DNA from: a bacterium
Lineage (GTDB): Bacteria; Patescibacteriota; Minisyncoccia; Phycocordibacterales; CAIZLB01
Assembly: GCA_031411135.1 (NCBI GenBank)
Contig: JANOAN010000013.1
Coordinates: 152,424 to 216,423 of the forward strand
Length of the DNA: 64,000 nt
Direction: 5' to 3'
Below the pieces are notes generated by a model. It saw only the letters and a program-made list of their open reading frames with translations. It made no database searches and was not told where the DNA came from. Numbering within the stretch: position 1 is the first letter of the stretch; the number at the start of each line of letters is the position of its first letter. Below are positions 1-35,606 of this stretch, piece after piece. The translations under genes were made by a program, and so were the position numbers.

Positions 1-845
1 CGCGAGTGGTGAATCCAAATAAACCGGCAAAGTAGGCGTATGCTGTCTTTCAAAAAATTCATTAAAATAAAATAGAAGTTCTTGAGTCTTTTCCAAAGAA
101 AAAGCAGGGATCAATAGTGTGCCTTTAGTCCTTTCAATATCAAGCACTACTTGCTTTAGCTTTTCCACACGCTCGTCGCGTGCTTCATGATTCTTGTCCC
201 CGTACACGCTCTCCATTACCATGTAATCCGCATCGTCTATTACTTCAGTATCTCGCAACAACGGACTTGGTGTATTACCCAAATCCCCCGTAAATACAAT
301 TTTGCGCTTTCCATCCACAGCAGGTCCAGTATAAGTCACTTCCCACATAGTCGAACCCAAAACATGCCCTGCATCCTTGCCGTACACAGAAAATCCTGGA
401 AAAACTTCCATATTCTTGTGATACTCCAAAGTCTTCCATATGGAAAGCGCTTTTTTAACATCCTGCTCTTCATACATTGGGTCCTCATGCTTTTTCTCAG
501 CATCATGTAAAGACAACTTCAAAGCATCGGCCAACATATACACCGCCAATTCATAAGTTTCAGGGGTCGAGTAAATCACACCATTAAATCCATCACGAAC
601 TAACTTTGGAATTCGCCCAATGTGGTCCATATGGGCATGGGTGATAAACAGCACTTCAATTGATGCAGGGTCGTAGGTAAACTTACTATGATTAAAATCG
701 TGTGATTCTTGGGTTCCTTGTTCAAGACCACAATCAAAGGCGATTTTTCGCTCTTTTCCGTTAGTGTCTGGTCCGGTTAATATAAAGTTTGCCCCCGTGA
801 CAGATCCTACTCCTCCGCAGAATGATATTGATAGTTTACTCATTG
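1..845 (-). CDS. MBL-fold metallo-hydrolase (partial; C-terminus runs off window edge)
   Basis: Minus-strand translation from ATG at 843-845 gives MSKLSISFCGGVGSVTGANF...ITHAHMDHIG (HxHxDH metallo-beta-lactamase motif). No stop before the window edge. Confidence 0.7.
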
Positions 846-1231
846 ATTTTTTTATTACTAATCTTATCCCATGCTAAGTAAACCACCAAACCCCCTATCA
901 TATCCATCAATATATCCTTCGTAGAGTCCAGCATGTAATCTGGAATGAGCTGTGCCACTTTAAAATAAAATTCAATTATTTCCCAAATAAAGCCAAGTCC
1001 AAAAGAAAAGATCAGGGCGTAAATCCAAGGTATACTGTAATCCTTTCTCCACCAAGAAAAAACGATGTAAGCCACCCAACTAATCAATGCCCCTCCGATA
1101 AAATGCATTGGTAAATCTAGCCATCTATAGATCCAGTAAAGTGAAAGTTCTGCTGCGAAATTATTAAAAATAAACAAAACAATCAGTAAGAAGGTCACAA
1201 TATATAGTTGATCTCTAAGGTTTTTTTGCAT
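836..1231 (-). CDS. small integral membrane protein (hypothetical, 4 predicted TM helices)
   Basis: 131-aa ORF, strongly hydrophobic with aromatic-rich helices. An intrinsic terminator lies about 20 nt upstream of its start. Confidence 0.5.
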   Translation of the reverse strand: MQKNLRDQLYIVTFLLIVLFIFNNFAAELSLYWIYRWLDLPMHFIGGALISWVAYIVFSWWRKDYSIPWIYALIFSFGLGFIWEIIEFYFKVAQLIPDYMLDSTKDILMDMIGGLVVYLAWDKISNKKINE

Positions 1232-1246
1232 AGAGACATTATATCA

Positions 1247-1280
1247 AATTAAAACACCTCGATGGACGTCGAGGGGTTTT
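1247..1280 (-). terminator. intrinsic terminator hairpin immediately upstream of the membrane-protein start (possible attenuator)
   Basis: cctcga-tggacg-tcgagg stem. On the minus strand it is followed by a T-run (tgttttaatttg). Confidence 0.5.
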
Positions 1281-1502
1281 AATTCGGATCACCTAATGTA
1301 ATTGAACCTAGTTTAATCTAGGTGGGTGCTCTGCAGTGAAGGCTCAAAGCCGTCACTGACGTGAGTTCCCTTTTTATAAAATTGTAGATCAATTACAGAT
1401 AAATGATCCTGATATAATTATATTCCTTTCTTTTTTCTTGCAAACTTACCTAAACGTAAATTTTGTTTTATTATCACGCCTGAAGTAAGCCACTTTAAAA
1501 CA

Positions 1503-2081
1503 CTAGTACAAAACACCCTCACGTAGCAACGTATAATCGATGATTTCATTTTCAGAAAACCAGTGTTTGATTTCATCTTCAGCTTCTTTGACTGATCCAG
1601 AGGCGTGAACGAGGTTTCGGATTGGTCGATTGTCGTTATCGGAAAGCTGATATGAATCGTGTACATAATCACCACGAATTGTACCCACTTCTGATTTCAA
1701 AGGTTCAGTTCCTCCTGTAATTTTTCTAACGATTGATACAGCATGTGCGCCTTCCCAGACCATAACGAGGATGGGGCCGGCGGCCATGTAGGATTTTAAT
1801 TTTTTAAGTAGTGCGTTTGTCACCTCTAGTGGATCATTTAATGGAGGAGTAAGTCCTTTATCTAAATAACCTTTGATTGTTTTTTCTCCAGTGATTTTTC
1901 TCCATTCTGGGTCGAGGGTGTAGTGTTTTTCAATCATGTCTTCGGTAGCGACTAGCATTTTGGCTGCGACAATTTTAAGCCCTACCCTTTCGTATCGCTG
2001 GATTATTTCGCCGATTAAGTTTCGTTGAATGCCGTCTGGTTTGATGATGATGAGGGTTCTTTCGTGTTTTGGGTGTTGCAT
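1503..2081 (-). CDS. ndk: nucleoside diphosphate kinase
   Basis: MQHPKHERTLIIIKPDGIQRNLIGEII...NLVHASGS is a typical NDK. Start re-assigned to the internal ATG at 2079-2081 (the track ORF has a 29-aa spurious extension). Confidence 0.9.
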   Translation of the reverse strand: MQHPKHERTLIIIKPDGIQRNLIGEIIQRYERVGLKIVAAKMLVATEDMIEKHYTLDPEWRKITGEKTIKGYLDKGLTPPLNDPLEVTNALLKKLKSYMAAGPILVMVWEGAHAVSIVRKITGGTEPLKSEVGTIRGDYVHDSYQLSDNDNRPIRNLVHASGSVKEAEDEIKHWFSENEIIDYTLLREGVLY

Positions 2082-2155
2082 GGGGGTATTATAACATGAT
2101 TTTATATCTTGACTTTTTAAATCAAGTTTATTAATATTCAAATGTATTTCTACTG

Positions 2156-2199
2156 AAAAGCACTGCATGAGGTTTCGTCCTTATGTGGTGCTTTTCTTA
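2156..2199 (-). terminator. intrinsic terminator downstream of the T4SS-type ATPase gene
   Basis: Imperfect 12-bp stem (gcactgcatgagg / ccttatgtggtgc) followed by a T-run on the minus strand. Confidence 0.45.
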
Positions 2200-2218
2200 T
2201 TTATATTCAAGTTTATCA

Positions 2219-5074
2219 CTACCCAAACGGGTTCACCTTCGGTGCTGGTGCCACCGGATCCTTTCTATACTTCTTCATCACTTCCGTCTCAATCTCCTCT
2301 CTATTTCTTCCAAGCTTCAACCCTGAAAGCTCCTTCAACTTGTCTGCAATATCAGGATCTCCCTTATCAGGCCATGTAAATTCAATATTAAAAGGTCGAA
2401 CAGGCTTACCCCCTGAAAGCATTCTGAGGTAACAATTCATATTGTCGTTGTTCATAATATCGTTCGCCGTAAAAACAGGCTCAAATTGTTTCTGTAAAAA
2501 TTCTGCATCTTCAGAACCTACTCTGAATACCGCCATTGAACCGACGTTTCCAAAGACCGCATCTTTGATTTTTTCATCCAATTGTGCGATGAATTGGTGA
2601 GCGATATTTAAAGAAAGTTTATATTTTCGTGCCTCTGACAAAATGGTTGAAATCGAAGGAGTAGTGATGTTTTGGAACTCGTCGATATATAGGTAGAAAG
2701 GATTCATGTGTTTACCGAATGAATCTACTCGAGAAAGTGCTGCCATTAAAATCTTTCCTACAAGAATAAGACCGATCAAAGACGCGTTGATATCTCCCAA
2801 TCTTCCCTTCGCAAGATTCACAAGGAGAATTTTCTTACTGTCCATAATATCTCTGAAATCAAATGATGATTTTTCTTGCGCGATAATAGGGCGCATAATG
2901 TCGTTTGCTAGGAACACGTCGAATTTGCTGACGATATAAGGCACAATGTTGGCTAGTGATCCTTCCCCACCTGCCTTTTCAGCAATCTCCTTCCAAAATT
3001 GAACAATGATAGGATTTTTACATTTTGAAACCTTCATATCACGGAAGCTTTTCACTGAAAGCACTCGAGAAACTTCCAACAATGTTGATCCACTCTCAGG
3101 ATCTTCAATAACCAACATAGCAGCATTTCTAAAATATTGCTCGAACATTGGACCCATTGATTCTGGATTTGCACCATAGAGCTTTTGGAAAATACTAAAT
3201 AATTCATTTACAACAAAGATTTTTTGATCTGGGAACGAATGGTTGTATTCAAGCATGTTTAATGCCATCGGCCGATCAGTATTTGAAGGGTCAAAATAAA
3301 TCACATCATCATAACGCTCTGGTGGAATATGGGCCAAAATCTCTTGAACATCGGATCCGTGCGGGTCAATAAAGCACACACCATCACCATTTTTAATATC
3401 TTGAATAATCATATTTCGAAGCATTGTCGATTTACCAGTACCTGTCTGTCCAATTGCATAGAAATGTCTGAGGCGATCTTCCGGAGTAATAAAAATATCA
3501 GTCGTCAGATTGCGATGTTTATTTTTACCAAGGAATAGGCCATCCTTTGAAAGCCCGAGTGGAGCAGGCGCTGTCCCTGCCTTTGATTGTTTCAATTGAG
3601 GCGAATTGCTCTGCCCCACTGGGAAATGCACCAATGAAGTTAGTTCTCGAATCGAAGTCGGTAATGCACATTCAGAAACGAAATCACGGTAGGTAAAGTG
3701 ATGTAACGTATCGATCAAATCCGATTTCTTCTGACGCTTGAATTCCAAAGTGTTCCCGAGCGAATTTTGGAACTGATTAAAAGCTGATTCAATATCGGCC
3801 AAGATCGCTTCCGCTCTCATGCCATTTTCAGCACTCGCAACAATGCGAATATTTGATTCAATAACAGGGGTCGCTAATTTTAATTTGATTTGTTCGGATG
3901 TAATTTGATCCACTACCTGTTCCTTTTCCTTATTTTTTTCCTTTTCCTCCTGCTTTTCAGAACTAAATATTTCCTTGGCAAAATCTTCTCCGCTTTCTTT
4001 GACTGCTTTTGTGAATTCACCCCATAATGTATGCCTAATATCTAATGCCTTGTTAACCTTAGTACCCTTTTGAATTTCATCCAAAGCTTCCTTATAGAGC
4101 TTTACATAGTAATCCCCCATTGGATTAATTACGATTTGAACCGCAGCGCCCTCCCCGTCTTTTTTGATCTTTGAAAGTGTATTCAAGAGCACGTTCAATG
4201 GGTCGTAATCAAACTGATCATAAGTTTTTATAGGATAAATCGGGTTTTTAGATTGCTTGGCAATACTGGCAACTGACACTCCATCAGTATTAAAAACATT
4301 GTAGTCATCTTTTTTCTCGGCAATTTTGGCATTCGGAAAAATCGAAAGAATCTGTTTTTCAAAAAGCGCGGTTTTATCATCTGGAATTGAAACATAAAAA
4401 ATAAATTCTTCACTACCCTCAGAAACCGCCAGCTCAATCGTAAAGTGATTATTACTGTGCCCCGCTTCATTTGAAAGATCTGCGGTTGAAAGCATACCTG
4501 CATAAAATTGCTCCATCGATGAAAGCATTTCTTTCAGTTGTTTTTCTTTGTCTTCTTTTTTAGTTTCAGGAAGAGCCACTTCGTACAAAGTATGTCGCAA
4601 AGTCCTGTCAAGCGGCGTTTTTTCCTTTAAACCCTTTACGTCAAAACCTTTTTTGATGTACTCAACAATGAAACGGTGGAAGTCGTCATCAATATGAGGA
4701 TTCCCGAGGTGACGGATAATATCAATCGTGTTTTTGATACCTTTTTCATTAAGCAGAGAAAGCAGCTCTTCAATTTTTTTATCATGAGTTTCAGGGGTTA
4801 GTTCAAGTACAATTTCTTTTTTCTCAGTATCTGGAGTTTTGAAAGATTCATGAAGGACCCTGCTTGCATCATGTTTGGTGTAGTCTTTAATTTCTTCTTC
4901 AATGATTTTCTCACGCTCAAACTTCTCCCCTCTTTCGGTTGCAGTATTTTCACGCTCCGCGACCACTTTGCGTAAATAATTTAACTCCTCCTCGGCAGAA
5001 GTAAATTGTTTATTGTCATATGAAAAATGTTCTTGTTCTTTCATTTTTAGGCCTTTTAAACTATTATACTCCAT
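2219..5074 (-). CDS. large P-loop ATPase of the type IV secretion / conjugation family (VirD4/TraD- or VirB4-like), with long charged N-terminal region
   Basis: Walker A GQTGTGKST; CFIDPHGSD...YFDPSN; YLYIDEFQN; ARKYKLSLNIAHQ. These are characteristic of TraG/VirD4/VirB4-type DNA/protein translocation ATPases. 951 aa. Confidence 0.55.
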   Translation of the reverse strand: MEYNSLKGLKMKEQEHFSYDNKQFTSAEEELNYLRKVVAERENTATERGEKFEREKIIEEEIKDYTKHDASRVLHESFKTPDTEKKEIVLELTPETHDKKIEELLSLLNEKGIKNTIDIIRHLGNPHIDDDFHRFIVEYIKKGFDVKGLKEKTPLDRTLRHTLYEVALPETKKEDKEKQLKEMLSSMEQFYAGMLSTADLSNEAGHSNNHFTIELAVSEGSEEFIFYVSIPDDKTALFEKQILSIFPNAKIAEKKDDYNVFNTDGVSVASIAKQSKNPIYPIKTYDQFDYDPLNVLLNTLSKIKKDGEGAAVQIVINPMGDYYVKLYKEALDEIQKGTKVNKALDIRHTLWGEFTKAVKESGEDFAKEIFSSEKQEEKEKNKEKEQVVDQITSEQIKLKLATPVIESNIRIVASAENGMRAEAILADIESAFNQFQNSLGNTLEFKRQKKSDLIDTLHHFTYRDFVSECALPTSIRELTSLVHFPVGQSNSPQLKQSKAGTAPAPLGLSKDGLFLGKNKHRNLTTDIFITPEDRLRHFYAIGQTGTGKSTMLRNMIIQDIKNGDGVCFIDPHGSDVQEILAHIPPERYDDVIYFDPSNTDRPMALNMLEYNHSFPDQKIFVVNELFSIFQKLYGANPESMGPMFEQYFRNAAMLVIEDPESGSTLLEVSRVLSVKSFRDMKVSKCKNPIIVQFWKEIAEKAGGEGSLANIVPYIVSKFDVFLANDIMRPIIAQEKSSFDFRDIMDSKKILLVNLAKGRLGDINASLIGLILVGKILMAALSRVDSFGKHMNPFYLYIDEFQNITTPSISTILSEARKYKLSLNIAHQFIAQLDEKIKDAVFGNVGSMAVFRVGSEDAEFLQKQFEPVFTANDIMNNDNMNCYLRMLSGGKPVRPFNIEFTWPDKGDPDIADKLKELSGLKLGRNREEIETEVMKKYRKDPVAPAPKVNPFG

Positions 5075-5088
5075 TATTTTACGAAGGG

Positions 5089-5340
5089 CTAAGGAAAAGT
5101 GTAGTAAACGCCCTTTTTAACACCATGTTTGATTATTAGTTTTCTTTTAACTAATAATCCCAGCAATCTGACAATAAATTGACGCGATACATTAAAATGA
5201 TTAGAAATTTCTCGAGTTGTTACTATAAAACCATCTGGTAACTCACAAAAGCTTTTAAAGCTTTTGTCATTTTGAAGATTTCTATGAATTACATACATTT
5301 TCTTAATATGTTCATAAATACTATATTCAGATAAAAGCAT
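5089..5340 (-). CDS. small HTH-type DNA-binding protein (hypothetical regulator)
   Basis: 83-aa ORF. The segment REISNHFNVSRQFIVRLLGLLVKRKLIIKH looks like a winged-helix recognition helix. It sits directly downstream of the TTGWCAA palindrome locus. Confidence 0.4.
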   Translation of the reverse strand: MLLSEYSIYEHIKKMYVIHRNLQNDKSFKSFCELPDGFIVTTREISNHFNVSRQFIVRLLGLLVKRKLIIKHGVKKGVYYTFP

Positions 5341-5456
5341 AGATTTGGTGGATTATTTATTAAATTATCAAAATTATAGACAACATTGATTAAGCATAAA
5401 TAAAAATTTATATAAATTTATTTTAATTAAAAAACCAAGGAACATAGCAAGATTTC

Positions 5457-5551
5457 ACCCATTGTCAAAAAGTTGTCAAAGAAATACGGGTGCATTTACA
5501 TTTTTTGACAACTGTTTGACAACTTATTGACAACTTATTGACAATGGGCGA
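5457..5551. promoter_or_regulatory. palindromic motif locus 1: tcaCCCATTGTCAA ... TTGACAATGGGCGAC with internal TTGACAA repeats
   Basis: Inverted repeat with -35-like TTGACA cores facing outward. A near-identical arm pair recurs at 25534-25613. Confidence 0.45.
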
Positions 5552-5552
5552 C

Positions 5553-5693
5553 TCAGGACACATCACTTTCAACCATCAATTCATCCATAAAAACTGCAGG
5601 TAGATTTGTTTTCTCTGCCAGTTTTCTTGTAAAAGTAGATTTACCCGAAGCACTCACCCCAACTACCACAATTTTATTTCCTAAATTTTTCAT
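5553..5693 (-). pseudogene. truncated N-terminal fragment of a P-loop NMP/adenylate-kinase-like gene
   Basis: Minus-strand ATG at 5691-5693 gives MKNLGNKIVVVGVSASGKSTFTRKLAEKTNLPAVFMDELMVESDVS followed by TGA. That is a Walker-A kinase N-terminus of only 46 aa, and no continuation exists in any frame. Confidence 0.4.
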
Positions 5694-5695
5694 CT

Positions 5696-6478
5696 CTATA
5701 AAGTAAGTATCTCCACCCCATCCTCCGTAATCGCCACGGTATGTTCAAAATGACAACTCCTTTTTCCATCAACTGTTTTATAAGTAAATCCATCATTAGA
5801 AACCATAATCGCACCCTTACCTTCATTCAAAATCGGCTCAATGGCAATAACCATTCCTGCCTTCAAAGCGACCCCTTGCCCCTTTCTACCATAATTTGGA
5901 ATAAATGGATCTTCGTGAACATGCTTACCCACCCCGTGTCCTCCTAAATGTTCTGCAAATTCAAAAACTTTCCCTTGGCTCGCCTTTTTCATAGCTTGTT
6001 CAATAGCAAAACCAATATCCCCCGTTTTGACCCCCGGCTTGCAAACACTAATCCCTGCATCTAATGCAATTTTACAAGCTGATAACATTACCTTTGCTGT
6101 TGAATCGGCCTTGTCGATTCCACCAACAATCACAGTCACCGCTGAATCTAAAACCATCTTTTTATAAATAATTCCCATATCGATCGAAACCATATCTCCA
6201 TCTCGCAAAATTCTTCCTCCTGGAATTCCATGTACAATTTCCTCATTTACCGAAACACAAAGACATGCCGGAAAAGGAAACGGTGCCCCTGCTGGTTGAT
6301 AATTCAAAAACGCTGGGATCACGTCATTCTTTTTACACAATTCTGCGGCTTTGTCATTTAAATCTGCCGCAGTTACACCTGCAACTGTTGCTTTTTCAAG
6401 ATCACGAAGAATATCAGCCAGGATTTTCCCGCCTTTTCGCATAAGTTCTATTTCTTTTTCGGTCTTGATGTAAATCAT
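5696..6478 (-). CDS. map: type I methionine aminopeptidase
   Basis: 260 aa with MAP fold motifs (HGIPG, metal-ligand D/H/E pattern). Conserved position after adk. Confidence 0.9.
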   Translation of the reverse strand: MIYIKTEKEIELMRKGGKILADILRDLEKATVAGVTAADLNDKAAELCKKNDVIPAFLNYQPAGAPFPFPACLCVSVNEEIVHGIPGGRILRDGDMVSIDMGIIYKKMVLDSAVTVIVGGIDKADSTAKVMLSACKIALDAGISVCKPGVKTGDIGFAIEQAMKKASQGKVFEFAEHLGGHGVGKHVHEDPFIPNYGRKGQGVALKAGMVIAIEPILNEGKGAIMVSNDGFTYKTVDGKRSCHFEHTVAITEDGVEILTL

Positions 6479-18580: not shown

Positions 18581-19777
18581 TTACGCGTTGATTTTAGTTA
18601 CAACACCAGCTCCTACAGTCTTTCCTCCTTCTCGGATGGCAAATTTCTGCTGTACTTCTAGGGCGATTGGGGCTACCAATTTAACCTTGAAAGTAACTGT
18701 ATCTCCTGGCATAACCATTTCTACACCTTCATTCAAAGATACTTCTCCAGTTACGTCTGTTGTTCGTACGTAGAACTGTGGTTTGTATCCAGTAAAGAAT
18801 GGAGTGTGTCGTCCACCTTCTTCTTTCTTTAGAATGTAAACTTCAGCTTCGAAATCAGTGTGCGGAGTAACTGATCCGGGCTTAGCCAAAACCTGACCTC
18901 GAGTCAAATCCTCCTTTTTAACACCTCGAAGAAGTAGACCAGCGTTGTCTCCAGCCATACCTTCGTTAAGCTGCTTGTTGAACATTTCAATACCTGTAAC
19001 CGCTGATTTTGCAGTGTCCTTAAGACCTACAATTTCGATTTCTTCAGCTAGTTTTACGATACCTCGTTCGATTTTACCTGTAACTACTGTTCCTCGTCCT
19101 TCAATAGAGAAGATGTCTTCAATTGGCATAAGGAAAGGCTTTTCAGTTTCTCGAACTGGAGTTGGGATGTAAGTATCAAGTGCGTTTGCAAGCTCGATAA
19201 TCTTTGATGACCATTCATCTGTATTATCCTTTGCTTCCAAAGCCTTTAGAGCTGAACCACGGATAACTGGAGCGTTAGCACCGTCAAATCCGTTCTTGTC
19301 CAACAATTCGCGAACTTCTGTCTCAACCAAGTCCAACATATCAGCATCGTCAACCATGTCACACTTGTTCATGAAAACGATGATCTTTGGCACACCTACC
19401 TGTCGTGCAAGAAGAACGTGTTCTCGTGTTTGTGGCATAGGTCCGTCAGTCGCTGCAACCACTAGGATCGCACCGTCCATTTGAGCTGCACCAGTAATCA
19501 TGTTCTTGATGTAGTCAGCGTGACCAGGGGCGTCAATGTGAGCATAGTGTCTTGCTGGTGTTTCGTATTCAGAGTGAGAAAGTGAAATAGTAATTCCTCG
19601 AGCCTTTTCTTCAGGAGCCTTATCAATCTGGTCTACACCCTTAACTGTTGCCGAGAATCCAGCACCCTGTCGAGACAAAGTGTTTAGAATAGCTGCAGTT
19701 AGAGTTGTCTTGCCATGGTCAACGTGTCCAATGGTACCTACGTTAACGTGTGGCTTTGTACGGTCAAATGTTGCCAT
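18581..19777 (-). CDS. tuf: elongation factor Tu
   Basis: [22 protein letters not shown] GTPase motifs. 398 aa. Confidence 0.97.
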
Positions 19778-20239
19778 ATGTTTGTTAGTTAAGTTCGTTT
19801 TGAGATATTAGAGCGCGAGATTGCCTAATATCCAAAAACGAACCGAAATTTTATTAATTTATTAATTTTAAATCTTGTCAGTAGTGCTTTGAACGCCTTT
19901 TTTATGGCTTAAAATAAGGGTGAACCCTGATTTTTGTACCCAAATGGCGTTTCGAAGTTACCAGACAAAAAAACCGCTGTAAAAGCGTTATGTGCATACT
20001 AGCAGTACGCTTAGAGGTTGTCAAACGTAAAATGGTGATAAATAGAGGTGTTTTGAGGGATTAATCCACAGTTTGTGCACAGGGTGTCTATTATATACAG
20101 GCATATGCACGCTCCATGTGTGCCTTTTATAAATAAATTCATTTTTTATTCATGTCTACCTATTAAGAAACAAGAACATTGAAATATTTTTTCTTAATGA
20201 TGAATACCATAAGTTTTCTAGAAAAAACGCTACAACATA

Positions 20240-20282
20240 AAAAAGCCCCCGATGCAGACGTATCTGCATAAGGGTCTTTTTC
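20240..20282. terminator. bidirectional intrinsic terminator bounding the GC-rich island on the tuf side
   Basis: cccgatgcaga-cgta-tctgcataaggg stem flanked by A-run and T-run. Confidence 0.5.
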
Positions 20283-20422
20283 ATAGTGATAATGAAATTA
20301 TATACCTTTAGTATAACCAGTCAAGGTTGCCCTTTAAACCAAAAAATGGTTTGATTGCAAACGGAACAAGTTTCCAGTCACCCAACAAAATCAAAACCCA
20401 AACAAGAAAGGACAGGACAAAT

Positions 20423-20971
20423 ATGGAAAAATCAGCCAAAAAAAAACTACATGAGGCATTGAGAAAGGCTCTCGCAGCAGCAATTGAACACAAAGCCACC
20501 CTCCTGCGTGCGCTTTTCAGGACCAAGACTAAAGGATTGGTGGTCGTCGTTTTGACGAAAAACTCTCTTCGACCCGGCCGTGGAGTCGAGGCCTGCAAAA
20601 AAGGCCTTGGGGTGCACCAGCCTGTCACTGAAATCAGGGAAGCAGAGGCAAAAAAGCACCCGAGGACCCTTCCCGCTTCCATGGTAACGAAGGCTCATGC
20701 TACGGCTGAAAGTGCTCTGGTTACAAAACTCGGCCTGAACAGGATCAAAAATGAGCCTTATCGTGCATTCACCACTGAAGGTCTCAATGTTCTCCACGGC
20801 GGATGCTGCTCACCTTGCGGAGAATATTCGGTAGGCGTTTGGGGTGGCGAAGGTTGGCAGAATGCCCAGATTGCTCAACACTTCGTGAGTGAGATGAATG
20901 AATGGTTTCGATCCCGACTCGACATCTTCGAGATGAGAGACATCCTGCCAAGTGAGGATGCGCTCAAATAG
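20423..20971 (+). CDS. hypothetical protein encoded in GC-rich island (antisense to str operon)
   Basis: 182-aa ORF from ATG preceded by aaggacagg RBS-like sequence. GC clearly above the genome background. Own terminator at 20984-21027. Confidence 0.4.
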   Translation: MEKSAKKKLHEALRKALAAAIEHKATLLRALFRTKTKGLVVVVLTKNSLRPGRGVEACKKGLGVHQPVTEIREAEAKKHPRTLPASMVTKAHATAESALVTKLGLNRIKNEPYRAFTTEGLNVLHGGCCSPCGEYSVGVWGGEGWQNAQIAQHFVSEMNEWFRSRLDIFEMRDILPSEDALK

Positions 20972-20983
20972 AAGTCAAACTTC

Positions 20984-21027
20984 AGCCCCGGACGCGTTTG
21001 CACGCGCCGGGGCTTCATTATTTCTGT
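20984..21027 (+). terminator. GC hairpin plus T-rich tail after island ORF
   Basis: agccccgg-acgcgtttgcacgcg-ccggggct followed by tcattatttctgtc. Confidence 0.45.
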
Positions 21028-21242
21028 CACCAATTTTTTCGGTGACGTCGGGCAAACCTCCTTTCTCCATTTTTGATTCTTTGACGAGGAGGCTTTTGGA
21101 TTCTGAAATCCAAACTAGACTTACCTTCACGCTTTGGTTTTTCCGGAGGGACCCAACCAAAATAATCAGGGTGGCGTGGGTCGTAAACCCACAATTCTTC
21201 TTCGTCTTTCGGGACAAACAGGTTTCCGTTTGCCATTGTCAT
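21027..21242 (-). CDS. small hypothetical protein in GC-rich island
   Basis: 71-aa ORF MTMANGNLFVPKDEEELWVYDPRHPDYFGWVPP... Protein-like composition, but overlapped by other frames in the GC-rich DNA. Confidence 0.25.
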   Translation of the reverse strand: MTMANGNLFVPKDEEELWVYDPRHPDYFGWVPPEKPKREGKSSLDFRIQKPPRQRIKNGERRFARRHRKNW

Positions 21243-21371
21243 ACGATTCCCTCCTACAAACGGTGCGAAGGAAATTGCGATAAAAAAGCTGCCAGTGTTT
21301 TCATGATTTACCTTTCTGTATGTGTATTATTGAATTTTGGAACTAGAGCGACTTTAAATATTACATGAAAA

Positions 21372-21405
21372 CAAAAAACCGCCTAGCTGGCGGTTTTTTG
21401 TTTTG
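21372..21405 (-). terminator. intrinsic terminator immediately after fusA
   Basis: aaaaaaccgcc-tagc-tggcggtttttt. Confidence 0.7.
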
Positions 21406-21407
21406 CA

Positions 21408-23558
21408 CTACTTCTTCGCCTCGACAATCGTCTTCTCAACGTTCGGTGGAACAACATCATAGTGATGGAATTCCATCGTCATTGATCCTCGTCCCTGTGT
21501 CATTGATCGAATATCAGTTGTGTAACCAAACATTTCAGAAAGAGGCACCATTGCATCAATCACTTTGTTCAATCCTCTGTCTGACATACCTTCAATCTGA
21601 CCTCGCTTTGATGAAAGTGAACCTGTCACGTCTCCCATGAATTGTTCTGGCATCACACATTCAACTTTCATAATAGGTTCAAGAATAACGGCTTTTGCGC
21701 GTCGTGCACCTTCCTGGAAAGCCATAGAAGCGGCAATCTTGTATGCAATTTCTGAAGAGTCCACATCGTGGTATGAACCGAACAATAATTCACATGAAAT
21801 ATCTGTCATTGGGAAACCGGCGACTACTCCTCTTTGCATTGCTTCGATAATTCCCTTTTCAACTGCAGGAATAAATTCAACTGGAATAACTCCTCCCTTG
21901 ATTGAATCGATGAATTCAAATCCTTCTGATCGATGAATATTCTTAGGAAGTTTTTTATCTGCTGGCCATGGTTCCAACTTTTTCAATTTAATTCTTACGT
22001 GACCGTATTGTCCCTTACCTCCAGACTGCTTAACATATTTGTGATCAGCTTCAGCTTCTCCAATAATAGTTTCTCGGTAAGCTACCTGTGGCTTTCCAAC
22101 GTTAGCTTCAACTCCGAACTCTCTCATCATACGGTCGATCATAATTTCAAGGTGAAGTTCTCCCATACCTGAAATGATAGTTTCTCCTGTTTCAGTGTTT
22201 GAAGAAATTCGGAAAGTTGGATCTTCATCTCCAAGTTTCTTAAGAGCGATACCCATCTTTTCCTGATCAGCCTTTGTTTTTGGTTCGATTCTAAGAGACA
22301 CTACTGGGTCAGCGAATTTAATTGGATTCAAAATAATTGGATGAGCTTCGTCACAGAAAGTATGTGAAGTTTTTGCTTCCTTCAAACCTACCGCTGCAGC
22401 AATTTCTCCGGCGTACACCTTTTTAACTTCTTCTCGCTTGTTAGCCTGCAATCGTACGATTCGTCCAAGTCTTTCTTTGTTTCCAGTTGTTGAGTTATAT
22501 AAGTATGAACCAGCTTCTACTGTTCCAGAGTAAACTCGGAAGAAAGTAAGCTGTCCTACGAATGGGTCGTTCTGTAATTTGAATGCAAGGGCAGAGAAAG
22601 GTTCACTGTCTGATGCATGTCGAATAATTTCTTCATTAGTATGAGGATCAAGACCGATAACAGGTGGTACGTCCAGTGGTGAAGGCAAGTAATCTACTAC
22701 GGCGTCCAAAATCAATTGTGTTCCTTTATTTTTCAATGCAGAACCTGTGAACACAGGGTAAATTTTACCGGCAATTACCCCTTTTCGAAGAGTTTTCTTA
22801 AGATCATCAATAGAAAAATCTGTCTTTCCTTCCAAATATTGATTCATCATCACATCATCAAATTCGACAATTTTTTCCACCAACTGAGCGCGGTATTTAG
22901 TCGCATCGGCTACCATGTTTTCAGGAATTTCTTTTTCAACCACAGTTCCTCCCATTTCTCCTTCAAAGTGGTAAGACTTCATTTTCAAAAGATCCACAAC
23001 TGCTTCGAAATCTCCTTCAGATCCGATAGGAAGCTGCATTCGAACTGCGTTCTTGTTCAATCTTTCTAGAATTGATGCATATGATCGTTCAAAAGAAGCA
23101 CCTGTTCGGTCCAACTTGTTAATAAAACAAATTCGAGGCACATTATATTTGTCAGCCTGTCTCCATACAGTTTCAGATTGAGGCTCTACTCCGGCTACAC
23201 CATCGAAAACCACTACTCCTCCGTCCAAAACCTTAAGAGATCGTTCTACCTCTACTGTAAAGTCCACGTGACCTGGCGTATCGATGATATTGAATCGGTG
23301 CATTCCAGATTTATCAGTTCCGTTGTAAGTCGGATTCCAGAAACATGTAATAGCAGCTGCGGTAATTGTAATACCTCGTTCCTTTTCCTGTTCCATCCAG
23401 TCAGTTGTTGCTTCACCGTCGTGCACTTCACCGATCTTGTGTGACATACCAGTGTAGTAAAGGATTCGTTCTGATGTTGTTGTCTTTCCCGCGTCGATGT
23501 GGGCAATGATACCGAAATTTCTTACTTTCTCTAGTGGATAATCTCTTTTGGTGTCCAT
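21408..23558 (-). CDS. fusA: elongation factor G
   Basis: 716 aa, [22 protein letters not shown] GTPase motifs. Confidence 0.97.
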
Positions 23559-23673: not shown

Positions 23674-24027
23674 TTAAATATTCTTTTTTTCAGCACCATC
23701 TTGAATCAAATCTATGCAATTTTCCATAAGTTTACTATATATGGATTTACTCACTCTTAAATTCACATAAGAGCCCAAACCAATAATAACTAGAAAAATA
23801 ACAGTCACTTCTAAAGAAATAGAGCTGGTTGCAAAAGCGACTCCTGAAATTACCAGGGCGAGAATCGTTCCGTAAAAAACGTAATTCTTCATTGATAAAG
23901 CCCATGTTTTTCTAAGTTCAGTCGTGTCTACCGTATCCTGTTTTTTAAGATTTTTTCTCTGCAATGTAAAAATAATTGCAAAAACTGCAATAAAGAAAAT
24001 AGGTAAAATTAACTCGATGATATTCAT
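23674..24027 (-). CDS. small membrane protein (hypothetical)
   Basis: 117 aa with three hydrophobic helices. Inserted between rpsG and fusA. Confidence 0.45.
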   Translation of the reverse strand: MNIIELILPIFFIAVFAIIFTLQRKNLKKQDTVDTTELRKTWALSMKNYVFYGTILALVISGVAFATSSISLEVTVIFLVIIGLGSYVNLRVSKSIYSKLMENCIDLIQDGAEKKNI

Positions 24028-24046
24028 TTGATTTAATTATACCACA

Positions 24047-24334
24047 CTACCTCCAAGACGGATGGTCTTCTGGCTCATTACGATTTTCATCCAACCTCAA
24101 AAACACCTCATCAAATGACTTCTTGATTACCCCTGCAAATTCATCGAATTTTTGATCCATTCTCCAATATATTCTTTCTTCAAGTTTATATAACTTATCA
24201 TCAAATTTTCTTTCAATCCTCTCTTCAAACTCTCTAAATCTCTTATCTATCTTCAATTCAAATACATCAAAACGAGCATCTAGTCTCGAATCAATAAGCG
24301 CACCTATTAGCATTAAATCTTTCTCGGTTAACAT
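24047..24334 (-). CDS. hypothetical coiled-coil protein
   Basis: 95 aa, charged heptad-like repeats (FREFEERIERKFDDKLYKLEERIY). Confidence 0.4.
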   Translation of the reverse strand: MLTEKDLMLIGALIDSRLDARFDVFELKIDKRFREFEERIERKFDDKLYKLEERIYWRMDQKFDEFAGVIKKSFDEVFLRLDENRNEPEDHPSWR

Positions 24335-25748: not shown

Positions 25749-26057
25749 ATGAATCAACTTGCCAGGCGATCAGACGTAAAAGCCTTGGTAGTATTGCGAA
25801 AGCTGAGAATGATCAGGGGGGTAGATCACCCACTCGGTCAGCTCATCGGTTTCGGTATCAGAAAAGTAGATGCTGATGCGACCCTTCCCCTTGAAGTCAT
25901 AGGAACGGTCAAGAGCTGTCCCTGTACAACATGGGGTCAACTGGAAAACGCCATTTACTACCTGCTGAAGATGGCCGGAGTACGTGACGCAAGTAGCGAC
26001 TACTTCGTGGAAACCGAAGCAGCAAAACTAAATCGTGATCTTCCGATTATGATCTAA
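25749..26057 (+). CDS. hypothetical protein (GC-elevated)
   Basis: 102-aa ORF divergent from rpsL, about 50 percent GC. No recognisable motif. Confidence 0.35.
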   Translation: MNQLARRSDVKALVVLRKLRMIRGVDHPLGQLIGFGIRKVDADATLPLEVIGTVKSCPCTTWGQLENAIYYLLKMAGVRDASSDYFVETEAAKLNRDLPIMI

Positions 26058-34371: not shown

Positions 34372-34641
34372 AATTGTATAAAGCACCGCCTATTTCACCA
34401 CCCCTTGAAGTCCCGTGACGATCTCAGGATTGAATCGTATTCGGCATCGTAATGCCATAGTGCCTTACACCAAGTATCTTCATTTTTGTTGAAGTGTCTG
34501 CATGCACCACTCTACCTGAAGCCTTGACCGCAGATACTCTCGATGCACGGATACTGGATTCGGTAGGAAGAAACCTTAATCTCTTCCATATTCACCTACT
34601 ACCGCTTTTTATCTTATCCTAAAAAATTAAATTTTGATATA

Positions 34642-34670
34642 GAAAAACCCCGCGCAAATGCAACGGGGCT
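34642..34670 (-). terminator. intrinsic terminator downstream of the DGR target gene
   Basis: ccccg-cgcaaatgcaa-cgggg with a T-run on the minus strand. Confidence 0.6.
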
Positions 34671-34767
34671 GGAAGATTTGGAGTTGTATCTTGCCATAAC
34701 TTACTTTTTGAGCCGAAGAGCAAAGTTCAAAGGGTCAGAGGAGACCACAGTGTCCAAAGCCCGAGAG

Positions 34768-35397
34768 CTACTCTGCGAAACCCAAAGCAGTATCGCTGGC
34801 GCTACGGCTGCGGTCGAGCCAGCCGGCACTCCAGTCCCAGGAGCCACCATCGCGCCGATAGAGACACAGGGCGCCCCGGCGGCCGTACGGGCTGCGAAGG
34901 GTGGTTCCGAGGAATTCGATCCAGCTGACGTTGAGGGTCTTGTGGAGCCACTTCAAGGTCGTCTGGTTCTCTTCCTTGTAAAGCGCTTCGCCGATCTTGG
35001 CATCCGCTTGGATCGCTTTCAGCAGGAGCCGTGCGCGTTTCTCTTCGCCGGTGACTGTGGTTTCGTCATCGATGAGGCCCGTCTGTGCGATGAGCTTCGT
35101 CGGGTCGAGTTCGGTGATGGCGAGCGAGCTCTTGTCCTGCTCTTCGTCGCCTTTGAGTCCATCGCCGTCCTTCGGTCCGCGCCAGATGCTCCAGCCTTCG
35201 CCGGTGAACGTGGCGGGGTCGAACGGAGTGGTGCGGTCGATCTTCAGGACTTGTGGTTTAAGGACGTGTTCGAGGGGAACGACGACGGTTTCGCCACGAA
35301 GGAATTTCAACGCTCCTGGCGTTCCTCCGAGCTTTTTTACGATTGCATTCAATTGCCCACCTGTAAGGTCGGCCATTGCGAATTTATCTTCTGACAT
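34768..35397 (-). CDS. DGR target protein (hypothetical, C-terminal C-type-lectin/FGE-like variable region)
   Basis: 209 aa, about 58 percent GC. C-terminus LYRRDGGSWDWSAGWLDRSRSASDTALGFAE is the VR-encoded counterpart of the TR peptide. Confidence 0.85.
   Translation of the reverse strand: MSEDKFAMADLTGGQLNAIVKKLGGTPGALKFLRGETVVVPLEHVLKPQVLKIDRTTPFDPATFTGEGWSIWRGPKDGDGLKGDEEQDKSSLAITELDPTKLIAQTGLIDDETTVTGEEKRARLLLKAIQADAKIGEALYKEENQTTLKWLHKTLNVSWIEFLGTTLRSPYGRRGALCLYRRDGGSWDWSAGWLDRSRSASDTALGFAE
34772..34899 (-). repeat. DGR variable repeat (VR) at 3-prime end of target gene
   Basis: 128-nt ungapped match to the TR with substitutions only at TR adenines (17 A>G, 3 A>C, 1 A>T). Confidence 0.9.
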
Positions 35398-35606
35398 GTT
35401 TCCTCCTTGTGCTTAGTTGCACGTTGGATTTTTCCCCTAATCCGGGGCAGAACCATGACCGTGGTAGTCATAGCCAGAAAACGTTGATAAATCAAGGTCT
35501 TTTGGCTATGACTACTGAAAAAATTGTAAGGTTCTGAACTGTTTAATATTATATCACATCATATATCTTCTTGTCAAGCTCAGCGTAATGGTTCAATACC
35601 TTTGCA

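What the first reader, a model, noticed from the sequence alone, without database searches (positions are those of the whole stretch)
20283..21376. 1.1-kb GC-rich insert between fusA and tuf splits the conserved str operon
rpsL-rpsG-fusA-tuf is normally contiguous. Here fusA ends with its own terminator (21372..21405). A segment of roughly 50-55 percent GC then follows, carrying a plus-strand (antisense) 182-aa ORF with an RBS-like sequence and its own terminator, plus a possible 71-aa minus-strand ORF. It is bounded on the tuf side by a second bidirectional terminator (20240..20282). tuf is therefore transcribed from its own promoter in the 19780-20240 region. The island looks horizontally acquired and has no recognisable homology motif.
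Basis: seen in the sequence. Interest (0 to 1): 0.55.

Follow-up and report, generated by a model that had tools for sequence, protein, structure and literature searches.

The report
Swappable orphan genes between fusA and tuf
The GC-rich DNA between two translation-factor genes of this tiny uncultured (Patescibacteria) bacterium holds a real protein gene with no known relatives, a small partner gene and a leftover of a nuclease gene, in a spot where closely related strains carry different genes; this is a gene-exchange hot spot rather than a new kind of element.

Summary
fusA (21408-23558, -) and tuf (18581-19777, -) are 1630 bp apart. The gap contains three strong hairpins, a 182-aa plus-strand ORF (ORF-A, 20423-20971) and a 71-aa minus-strand ORF (ORF-B, 21027-21242).

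ORF-A is a real gene, not a structured RNA. Against its one close homologue, substitutions fall 12/9/41 by codon position and dN/dS is 0.12-0.15. No Rfam family matches. It has no other detectable relative in 5.8 billion protein clusters or 1.84 billion representatives. Its GC3 is 0.51, against 0.30-0.35 in neighbouring genes.

It is not a recent private insertion. Sister populations 90-94% identical in fusA and tuf show four arrangements of this gap:
- the same ORF-A;
- a 201-aa protein only 22% identical to it, behind the same promoter and hairpins and next to an intact NYN nuclease gene;
- an unrelated 79-aa Cys-rich ORF;
- different cargo genes inserted at the fusA 3' end, two with a duplicated fusA tail.

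The window keeps only the last 27 codons of the NYN gene, and its ORF-B has a frameshifted N-terminus. Across Patescibacteria the fusA-tuf gap ranges from 91 to 9324 bp.

Verdict: an accessory-gene hot spot holding orphan genes. The function of ORF-A is unknown. Interest is modest.

The parts
19778..19995 (-). tuf 5' leader of about 210 nt, with a long hairpin at 19792-19844 just upstream of the start codon
   Evidence: Folds at -56.8 kcal/mol, z -6.4. It is 87-100% identical in L001. Relatives also carry hairpins just upstream of tuf. No Rfam match.
19996..20024 (-). Promoter-like site for tuf (TTGACA, 17 nt, TG-extended TAGTAT)
   Evidence: Consensus scan gives 10/12 with TG. Identical in L001 and L085. 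Function is inferred, not shown.
20135..20240 (+). Remnant of an NYN-domain (PF01936) gene. 20157-20237 encodes the last 27 of 163 residues plus the stop. 20135-20166 matches the region upstream of the intact gene's start.
   Evidence: tblastn of the L085 NYN protein: residues 137-163, 78% identity, E 6e-9. blastn and alignment to L085. The L085 gene hits PF01936 at E 1.1e-15.
20240..20282 (.). Bidirectional terminator-like hairpin. It lies downstream of the NYN remnant on the plus strand and blocks antisense read-through towards tuf on the minus strand.
   Evidence: -24.4 kcal/mol (minus) and -18.8 (plus), z -5.9 and -4.2. Nearly identical in L085, absent from L001.
20297..20324 (-). Near-consensus promoter-like site (TTGACT, 16 nt, TATAAT) pointing at the 20282-20240 hairpin. 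It could make an antisense RNA of about 50 nt, or it could be chance.
   Evidence: 11/12 match. Conserved in L085. Not followed up further.
20327..20355 (+). Promoter-like site for ORF-A: TTGCCC (20327-20332), 17 nt, TG-extended TTTGAT (20350-20355). The 5' UTR would be about 60 nt.
   Evidence: Read from the sequence. The same spacing and -10 occur in L001 (-35 TTGACA) and L085 (-35 TTGACC). Inferred.
20423..20971 (+). ORF-A: 182 aa, 20.1 kDa, pI 9.6, no hydrophobic segment. An orphan protein-coding gene.
   Evidence: Substitutions against L001 fall 12/9/41 by codon position. dN/dS is 0.115-0.145. It is the only frame open in both genomes. 87% aa identity to L001. No family or structure match.
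20984..21014 (.). GC-rich hairpin shared by the convergent ORF-A and ORF-B. It is the conserved boundary between the exchangeable modules.
   Evidence: -28.9 and -30.5 kcal/mol. 94-98% identical in L001, L085-L089 and L090, while the genes on either side differ.
21027..21242 (-). ORF-B (type 2), 71 aa as it stands. It is the C-terminal part of a 95-aa small protein with a hydrophobic N-terminus.
   Evidence: AGGAGGG lies 7 nt upstream. An intact 95-aa form, P0007, is found in L090-L092 at about 90% nt identity, and most differences fall at third codon positions.
21243..21304 (-). Out-of-frame N-terminal (signal or anchor-like) segment of ORF-B. The ATG is at 21304-21302. A 1-nt deletion lies at the T-run 21282-21287.
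   Evidence: Alignment with L090 and L091 shows the 1-nt gap. Translations. Whether this is a pseudogene or an assembly error is not resolved.
21305..21365 (-). ORF-B upstream (promoter) region
   Evidence: 70% identical to L001 and about 85-90% to L090, more conserved than the ORF-B body is against L001. Inferred.
21366..21404 (.). Intrinsic terminator of fusA (bidirectional palindrome AAAAAACCGCC...GGCGGTTTTTT)
   Evidence: -24.0 kcal/mol, z -6.7, followed by a U-run. Sequence.

Best explanation
The fusA-tuf spacer of this Patescibacteria genome is an accessory-gene slot, not a structured RNA and not a one-off island.

In the window it holds three things:
(1) ORF-A, a real orphan gene for a soluble, basic 20-kDa protein. 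It is transcribed antisense to the operon from its own promoter-like site and ends at a GC-rich hairpin.
(2) ORF-B, a small convergent gene for a protein with a hydrophobic N-terminus. Here that N-terminus is knocked out of frame by a 1-nt deletion.
(3) The 27-codon stump of an NYN-domain nuclease gene, with its terminator hairpin.

Shown: closely related populations keep the same framework (fusA end, hairpins, ORF-A promoter, tuf promoter) but carry different genes inside it. They also carry different cargo inserted at the fusA 3' end, flanked in two of them by a duplicated fusA tail.

Inferred: homologous recombination in the conserved flanks, together with insertion at the fusA 3' end, swaps GC3-rich foreign modules in and out.

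Inferred consequence: fusA transcription stops at its own terminator. The hairpins insulate the antisense unit. tuf, followed 26 nt downstream by rpsJ and the r-protein genes after it, is driven from its own conserved promoter with a structured leader.

Function of ORF-A (weakest step, a guess): an accessory factor, possibly conflict- or defence-related, that once worked beside the NYN RNase. His, Glu and Cys residues conserved with its 22%-identical counterpart would be candidate functional residues.
For: ORF-A is coding:
- Substitutions fall 12/9/41 by codon position.
- dN/dS is 0.115-0.145 in the ORF frame. Three other frames give 1.1-2.3; the minus frame that shares its wobble position gives 0.16 but carries stops.
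- Only the ORF frame is free of stops in both genomes.
- A frameshift in codons 4-8 is compensated within about 16 nt.

ORF-A is not a known RNA: no Rfam match at gathering or E-value thresholds.

ORF-A is an orphan: the only homologues are itself and the L001-type protein in 5.8 billion clusters, and itself alone among 1.84 billion representatives.

Composition looks foreign: GC3 is 0.51 for ORF-A, 0.64 for A' and 0.51 for A'', against 0.27-0.36 in host genes.

The slot is mosaic:
- L001 has ORF-A with ORF-B type 1.
- L085 has A' with ORF-B type 1 and an intact NYN gene.
- L090 has A'' with ORF-B type 2.
- The window has ORF-A with ORF-B type 2.
- The shared hairpin is 94-98% identical throughout.

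A and A' are probable distant homologues: BLASTP E 1e-4, hhalign E 5.6e-4, shuffle p about 0.001, and they occupy the same position. A' is also under purifying selection, with dN/dS 0.23-0.25.

The NYN stump is detected at E 6e-9.

fusA 3' repeats flank the inserted cargo in L001 (about 49 bp) and L085 (74 bp).

Clade-wide, fusA-tuf gaps are 91-9324 bp in Patescibacteria loci, with unrelated contents, against 34-92 bp in other bacteria.

The tuf promoter and leader are conserved.
Against: - There is no expression data. Promoters and terminators are consensus and energy predictions only.
- No function can be assigned. The AF2 model is unreliable (pLDDT 40.6), the fold search is empty and PADLOC finds nothing.
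- The A/A' homology is weak (hhalign probability 30%).
- No recombinase or mobility gene was found, so the exchange mechanism is inferred from the mosaic pattern alone.
- All comparison sequences are metagenome assemblies. Some junctions, and the ORF-B frameshift, could be assembly artefacts.
- A link between NYN and ORF-A rests on adjacency in one lineage only, and a terminator-like hairpin lies between them.
Confidence: 0.75

Rival explanations
1. The GC-rich segment is a structured non-coding RNA, or other GC-rich non-coding DNA, and the ORFs are artefacts.
For: Both strands fold somewhat better than shuffles (z -3.1 and -2.8). Overlapping ORFs occur on both strands. GC-rich islands in AT-rich genomes are often RNAs (general knowledge).
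Against: No Rfam family matches. Substitutions are codon-periodic at 12/9/41 and dN/dS is 0.12-0.15. Only one frame is open in both genomes. Part of the folding signal may come from the terminator hairpin included in the folded stretch.
Confidence: 0.03
2. A single, recent horizontally acquired 1.1-kb island private to this genome split an otherwise intact str operon.
For: ORF-A GC3 is 0.51 against about 0.33 in neighbours. No homologues occur in the fusA loci of 80 other species. There is no homology to known families.
Against: ORF-A is at the same site in L001, with dS 0.46, similar to the flanking genes. ORF-B, ORF-A and the NYN stump have different histories. The tuf-side part is a deletion remnant, not an insertion. 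There are no direct repeats or mobility genes in the window. Gaps of 0.4-9 kb are normal in the clade.
Confidence: 0.12
3. ORF-A and A' are immunity or antitoxin-type partners of the neighbouring NYN RNase, and the slot is a toxin-immunity or defence locus. ORF-A in the window would be an orphan immunity gene left after the nuclease was lost.
For: An intact NYN gene lies directly upstream of A', in the same orientation, in L085, L086 and L089. There is an NYN stump upstream of ORF-A in the window. Alleles are hypervariable within conserved flanks. Other slot cargo includes MoxR-VWA, AAA_14/DUF4143 and a PHROG-matching protein.
Against: A terminator-like hairpin and a separate promoter lie between NYN and A. 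PADLOC gives no hits. NYN (LabA-like) proteins are not established toxins here. ORF-A stays under purifying selection without NYN in two lineages. L090 has neither NYN nor A.
Confidence: 0.12
4. A and A' diverged in place by extremely fast evolution, or the genes arose de novo, rather than by replacement through recombination.
For: They share position, promoter, orientation and similar length, with weak collinear similarity. The family is absent everywhere else.
Against: Both types are under purifying selection within type, with dN/dS 0.12-0.25. Flanks are 88-98% identical and homology stops abruptly at the module edges. Both have GC3 far above the host's, which in-place origin from AT-rich DNA does not predict.
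Confidence: 0.07

Closest known systems
Canonical str operon (rpsL-rpsG-fusA-tufA) followed by the S10 operon, as in E. coli and most bacteria
   Same: Gene order rpsL, rpsG, fusA, tuf, rpsJ, rplC and onwards is kept on one strand. In the named non-Patescibacteria genomes fetched here, fusA and tuf are 34-92 bp apart. A separate promoter for tuf is not unusual: secondary tufA promoters are known in E. coli (own knowledge).
   Different: Here 1630 bp with three hairpins, an antisense gene and a convergent gene separate fusA from tuf. Two further ORFs separate rpsG from fusA. In the nearest species representatives tuf is more than 10 kb from fusA, or the gap is 0.1-6 kb.
Insertions between concatenated translation operons, and integration hot spots between core genes
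   Same: Conserved core genes flank a site that takes different multigene insertions in different lineages. [quoted passage not shown] Here there are four configurations in sister populations.
   Different: The site lies inside the str unit (fusA|tuf), not between operons. Modules are bounded by conserved hairpins and promoters. Two insertions duplicate the fusA 3' end. No integrase was seen.
ORFan (taxonomically restricted) genes of presumed foreign origin
   Same: No homologues outside a very narrow lineage. Atypical composition. Short length. Located in a variable region.
   Different: ORF-A shows clear purifying selection. It also has a 22%-identical positional counterpart, which suggests a small hidden family.
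NYN / LabA-like PIN-domain nuclease genes (Pfam PF01936)
   Same: The L085 neighbour of A' matches PF01936 at E 1.1e-15. The window retains its last 27 codons.
   Different: In the window the gene is destroyed, with codons 1-136 deleted. ORF-A itself has no NYN similarity.
Integron gene cassettes
   Same: Small, compositionally odd, exchangeable single-gene modules separated by hairpin-forming sequences.
   Different: The hairpins are perfect GC-rich stems and two of the three carry U-runs, which is typical of terminators. Modules have their own promoters and opposite orientations. No intI or attI was seen in the loci examined (gene tables). attC structure was not tested formally.

Membership tests
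Structured non-coding RNA (any Rfam family) | Match to a covariance model at or near the gathering score | tested here: not met
   No hit in 20283-21376 at gathering. The E-value scan gives only sub-threshold terminator look-alikes at 21300-21467 and one E 4.4 chance hit.
Structured non-coding RNA (any Rfam family) | Substitution pattern without codon periodicity (pairing-driven conservation) | tested here: not met
   12/9/41 substitutions at codon positions 1/2/3. dN/dS 0.12-0.15 in one frame.
Protein-coding gene under selection | Reading frame intact in independent genomes, with other frames closed | tested here: met
   0 stops in frame +0 in the window and L001; 3-10 stops in all other frames.
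Protein-coding gene under selection | dN/dS well below 1 | tested here: met
   ORF-A 0.115-0.145. A' 0.23-0.25, ORF-B type 1 0.23-0.84.
Protein-coding gene under selection | Evidence of transcription or translation | not testable with these tools
   Only promoter-like, RBS-like and terminator-like sequences are available.
Horizontally acquired genomic island | Composition deviating from the host | tested here: met
   GC 0.51 and GC3 0.514, against 0.395 for the window and GC3 0.30-0.35 for neighbours.
Horizontally acquired genomic island | Patchy distribution among relatives | tested here: met
   Absent from the fusA loci of 80 species. Sister strains carry A, A' or A''.
Horizontally acquired genomic island | Mobility signatures: integrase or transposase, flanking direct repeats, tRNA target | tested here: not met
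   There is no repeat of the fusA 3' end or any other direct repeat in the window spacer. ORFs have no Pfam or PHROG hit. The nearest tRNAs are about 38 kb away. Repeats do flank the extra cargo in L001 and L085.
Horizontally acquired genomic island | Identifiable donor lineage | tested here: not met
   No homologue in protein, phage, plasmid, viral or metagenome searches.
Canonical co-transcribed str operon | fusA and tuf adjacent (tens of bp) with no terminator between them | tested here: not met
   1630-bp gap with three strong hairpins.
NYN domain protein (PF01936) | Full NYN domain matching the Pfam model | tested here: not met
   The window keeps only residues 137-163. The full gene is in L085, at E 1.1e-15.
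Cytidine-deaminase-like zinc enzymes (H[AV]E ... PCxxC; motif recalled from memory) | HxE and PCxxC motifs conserved in the family; Pfam deaminase match | tested here: not met
   ORF-A has H92-A-T-A-E96 and C129-S-P-C132, but C132 is not conserved in A'. No Pfam hit.
Known anti-phage defence systems (PADLOC) | Match to a PADLOC model | tested here: not met
   No hits for ORF-A, ORF-B or the L001 island proteins, apart from weak wHTH-type matches of the TrmB protein.

The most novel reading that the evidence does not exclude
The fusA-tuf spacer of this Patescibacteria lineage is a dedicated modular exchange site. A fixed scaffold of promoter and terminator hairpins would express whichever GC-rich foreign gene is recombined into it. 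On this reading the ORF-A/A' proteins are a new family acting with, or against, the adjacent NYN RNase in some conflict (defence or immunity) role. Placing the site next to the most conserved and highly expressed genes would guarantee both recombination anchors and expression.
Probability: 0.15. Interest if true: 0.55.

Novelty: new member of a known kind. Interest (0 to 1): 0.3.

Why it matters
The result corrects an over-reading. The insert is neither an RNA nor a unique island. It is a real orphan gene in a strain-variable slot.

It shows that fusA-tuf linkage, near-universal elsewhere, is routinely broken in Patescibacteria. It also shows that very closely related populations differ by whole-gene replacements at this site. 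This is useful for strain-resolved analysis of these uncultured bacteria, and it is a caution for annotation pipelines that assume str operon contiguity.

The ORF-A/A' proteins are a small, selected family with no known function. They would be a target only if the link to the NYN nuclease proves real.

Tried and rejected
- Rfam at gathering and E-value thresholds found nothing in the segment. tRNA/tmRNA scan found nothing nearby.
- Folding of both strands gave modest z-scores that do not discriminate.
- Pfam, NCBIfam, PHROGs, PADLOC and PDB sequence searches of ORF-A and ORF-B gave no significant hits.
- Large protein databases returned only the sequence itself and one sister.
- Phage and plasmid tblastn, and viral contigs, gave no match.
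- Two metagenome scans returned nothing. The second was probably defeated because candidates are confirmed against ORF-A itself, so A'-like hits would be discarded.
- AlphaFold2 with a 2-sequence alignment gave pLDDT 40.6. The Foldseek search of the PDB with that model was meaningless, best E 1.1.
- The 240-bp stretch that L001 lacks was tested as a repeat or MITE. There are no other copies in the window or loci. It turned out to be an NYN remnant plus its terminator.
- A copy of the fusA 3' end was sought inside the window spacer, as an att-like signature. None was found.
- The antisense 153-aa GC-rich ORF in the L026 gap was tested as an ORF-A relative. It is not similar.
- A'' against A and A' gave no similarity.
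- A deaminase-like reading of the His/Glu/Cys residues was rejected on motif conservation.
- A literature search for fusA-tuf disruption in Patescibacteria found nothing specific.
Full report
**1. What is at the coordinates**

fusA (21408-23558) and tuf (18581-19777) both lie on the minus strand and are 1630 bp apart.
- the fusA terminator at about 21366-21404, -24.0 kcal/mol, z -6.7, followed by a U-run;
- a GC-rich hairpin at 20984-21014 between two convergent ORFs, -28.9 and -30.5 kcal/mol;
- a hairpin at 20240-20282 flanked by an A-run and a T-run, -24.4 and -18.8 kcal/mol.

Only 20401-21100 reaches 50% GC or more (0.503). The rest of the stated segment is 0.42-0.47. The window averages 0.395, and only 1.3% of 550-nt windows are as GC-rich as the 182-aa ORF. 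The ORF's GC3 is 0.514, against 0.30-0.35 in tuf, fusA and the ribosomal protein genes. The compositional anomaly is therefore real.

**2. Coding gene or RNA?**

Rfam finds nothing in the segment, either at gathering thresholds or in a permissive scan. Both strands fold only modestly better than shuffles.

The decisive test came from a sister genome, L001 (a 790-kb JGI contig), which carries the same ORF at the same place.
- Between the two copies, substitutions fall 12/9/41 at codon positions 1/2/3 downstream of the ATG at 20423. Upstream of it they fall 9/3/6.
- dN/dS is 0.145, or 0.115 without the first eight codons. Three other frames give 1.1-2.3. The antisense frame that shares the wobble position mimics the signal at 0.16 but is interrupted by stops.
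- Only the plus frame is open in both genomes.
- A +1/-1 pair of indels in two A-runs within codons 4-8 restores the frame.

ORF-A (20423-20971, 182 aa, 20.1 kDa, pI 9.6) is therefore a genuine protein-coding gene that starts at the ATG. The structured-RNA alternative is rejected.

**3. Homology**

ORF-A has no Pfam, NCBIfam, PHROG, PADLOC or PDB-sequence match. In 5.8 billion protein clusters, only the sequence itself and the L001-type protein are found, the latter 87% identical over the 182 aa. An exhaustive HMMER pass over 1.84 billion representatives returns only the sequence itself. Phage, plasmid, viral-contig and metagenome scans are empty.

AlphaFold2 with two sequences gives an unreliable alpha/beta model (pLDDT 40.6), and Foldseek gives nothing. 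ORF-A is an orphan.

**4. The sister populations show what the region is**

Contigs 90-94% identical to the window in fusA and tuf fall into four configurations.

| Population | After fusA | ORF-B | Slot gene (antisense) | NYN gene |
|---|---|---|---|---|
| Window | terminator only | type 2, 71 aa as it stands | ORF-A (182 aa) | 27-codon stump plus hairpin |
| L001 | 9.3-kb island (958-aa protein, VWA, MoxR ATPase, a PHROG-matching protein, TrmB), then a ~49-bp copy of the fusA 3' end | type 1, 119 aa | ORF-A | gone, with its hairpin |
| L085/L086 (L089 shares the ORF-B to tuf part; its contig starts in a fusA 3' copy) | 741-aa peptidoglycan-binding protein gene, then a 74-bp copy of the fusA 3' end | type 1, 116 aa | A' (201 aa) | intact, 163 aa, PF01936 E 1.1e-15 |
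| L090 | AAA_14/DUF4143 ATPase gene | type 2, intact 95 aa | A'' (unrelated 79-aa Cys-rich ORF) | absent |

In all four, the hairpin between ORF-B and the slot gene is shared. In L085 the ORF-A promoter and the second hairpin are also the same as in the window.

The window's 20157-20237 encodes the last 27 residues of the NYN protein (78% identity, E 6e-9). The '240 bp' that L001 lacks is therefore a deletion remnant, not an insertion.

The shared hairpin is 94-98% identical everywhere. The gene bodies on either side are either about 88-90% identical or unalignable, in combinations that do not track each other: A with B2, A with B1, A' with B1, and A'' with B2. That is a recombinational mosaic.

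**5. A and A'**

A' is only 21-22% identical to ORF-A, but the alignment is collinear over the full length. BLASTP gives E 1e-4 for the single planned comparison, hhalign gives E 5.6e-4 (probability 30%), and 2 of 2000 shuffles reach the Smith-Waterman score.

A' occupies the same position and orientation behind the same promoter-like site. It is also under purifying selection (dN/dS 0.23-0.25) and is also GC3-rich (0.64). I take A and A' as probable distant members of one small family. Residues conserved between them include the strand L39-V40-x-x-V43-x-T45-x-N47, T94-A95-E96 with a His just before it (H92 in ORF-A, one residue closer in A'), and C129.

A'' is unrelated.

**6. ORF-B**

The 71-aa ORF has a strong AGGAGGG. 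It is the C-terminal part of a 95-aa protein (P0007) whose hydrophobic N-terminus (MKTIVTAFIAISLAPFVGG) is out of frame in the window. The cause is a 1-nt deletion at the T-run at 21282-21287. Most differences from L090 fall at third codon positions, so the gene is or was real. Whether the window copy is a pseudogene, uses the internal start, or reflects a homopolymer assembly error cannot be decided here. Type 1 and type 2 ORF-B share only their first ~10 residues after the internal Met.

**7. The wider clade**

The fusA loci of 80 species representatives were fetched.
- The named non-Patescibacteria genomes have fusA-tuf gaps of 34-92 bp.
- Patescibacteria loci range from 91 to 9324 bp.
- Among the 22 closest (fusA 68% identical or more), 13 have tuf in reach. 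Twelve of those have gaps above 400 bp (405-5946).
- Three more have no tuf within 10 kb. In two of them, L005 and L006, an S20-like gene follows fusA.
- The gap contents are largely unrelated between species, and none resembles ORF-A or ORF-B.

**8. How the locus most likely works**

This section is inferred from sequence.
- fusA transcription ends at its terminator.
- ORF-B has its own upstream region and ends at the shared hairpin.
- ORF-A is transcribed antisense from TTGCCC(20327)-17-TGgTTTGAT(20355). The same architecture occurs in L001 and L085. It ends at the same hairpin.
- The 20240-20282 hairpin terminated the NYN gene. On the other strand it would stop antisense transcription heading towards tuf.
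- tuf, followed 26 nt later by rpsJ and the r-protein genes after it, has a conserved TTGACA-17-TAGTAT promoter-like site at 20024-19996 and a ~210-nt structured leader (z -6.4).

ORF-A's dS against L001 (0.46) is similar to that of rplD (0.44) and rplC (0.36). The gene has therefore been inherited with its flanks since those two populations split, while keeping a foreign GC3.

**9. Function**

Nothing testable here assigns one. The best guess (about 0.15) is an accessory, conflict-type role connected with the NYN RNase that sits upstream of A' in one lineage. Arguments against: a hairpin and a promoter separate the two genes, PADLOC is silent, and ORF-A persists under selection without NYN. 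A deaminase-like reading of the His/Glu/Cys residues fails on motif conservation.

**10. Comparison with what is known, and verdict**

The closest known kinds are:
- insertions that separate translation operons in other phyla (PMC6735719 abstract);
- hot spots between core genes that collect variable cargo;
- ORFan genes.

The locus behaves like these. It is not an integron, since modules carry their own promoters, the hairpins look like terminators and no intI was seen. It is not a classical integrase-borne island. The duplicated fusA 3' ends around the extra cargo in L001 and L085 do suggest repeated insertion at that site.

The finding is real, but it is a new member of a known kind: an orphan gene pair in a strain-variable slot. 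Interest is modest (0.3). The one less ordinary aspect is the clean modular replacement within a conserved promoter/terminator scaffold inside the str cluster.

Noticed in passing
window 34601-35500: This is the most GC-rich stretch of the window (0.546). It holds a minus-strand 209-aa ORF (34768-35397, GC3 0.705) overlapped by a 238-aa plus-strand ORF. Neither has a Pfam hit or any similarity to ORF-A. It looks like another compositionally foreign orphan.
   Followed up: partly
window 25749-26057 (+): A 102-aa antisense ORF with GC 0.51 sits just upstream of rpsL. It has no Pfam hit. The setting is the same (GC-rich, antisense, next to a core translation gene).
   Followed up: partly
window 23674-24334 (-): Two AT-rich ORFs lie between rpsG and fusA: a 95-aa charged protein (24047-24334) and a 117-aa membrane-like protein (23674-24027). 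The str cluster is therefore interrupted here too. There is no homologue in the fusA loci of 80 relatives.
   Followed up: partly
window 19778-19995 (-), hairpin 19792-19844: The tuf leader folds very stably (z -6.4), with a 53-nt hairpin ending about 15 nt before the ATG, and there is no obvious Shine-Dalgarno sequence. Relatives also have hairpins directly upstream of tuf. This may be a clade-wide leader element. Rfam has no match.
   Followed up: partly
window 20324-20240 (-): A near-consensus promoter-like site (TTGACT-16-TATAAT, 11/12) is followed at once by the terminator hairpin. It is conserved in L085. It could encode an RNA of about 50 nt, antisense to the ORF-A promoter and the NYN 3' end.
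   Followed up: no
L001 11174-11222 and 20487-20535; L085 3325-3398: Imperfect direct repeats of the fusA 3' end flank different inserted cargo: about 49 bp around 9.3 kb in L001, and 74 bp around a 741-aa PG_binding gene in L085. This suggests repeated insertion at, or recombination through, the end of fusA. No integrase was seen.
   Followed up: partly
L001 18460-18924 (-): A 154-aa protein of the L001 island matches PHROG 23674 (unknown function) at E 8.5e-22, which hints at a phage-related origin for that island. The neighbouring 958-aa protein has a weak acetyltransferase-like stretch.
   Followed up: no
L090 1911-2150 (-): A 79-aa Cys/His-rich ORF (GICCKECIKCH..., GC3 0.51) occupies the ORF-A slot in a sister population. 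It was not called as a gene in the source and is unrelated to A and A'.
   Followed up: partly
L005 12165-12434, L006 12163-12432: In the two closest species representatives, fusA is followed by an 89-aa ORF that reads like ribosomal protein S20 (my reading of the sequence, not searched), and tuf is more than 10 kb away. fusA-tuf linkage is fully lost there.
   Followed up: partly
L026 12236-12697 (-): Another relative has a single antisense GC-rich ORF (153 aa, GC 0.51 against locus 0.40) in its 956-bp fusA-tuf gap. It is not similar to ORF-A, so the arrangement is analogous but the gene is unrelated.
   Followed up: partly
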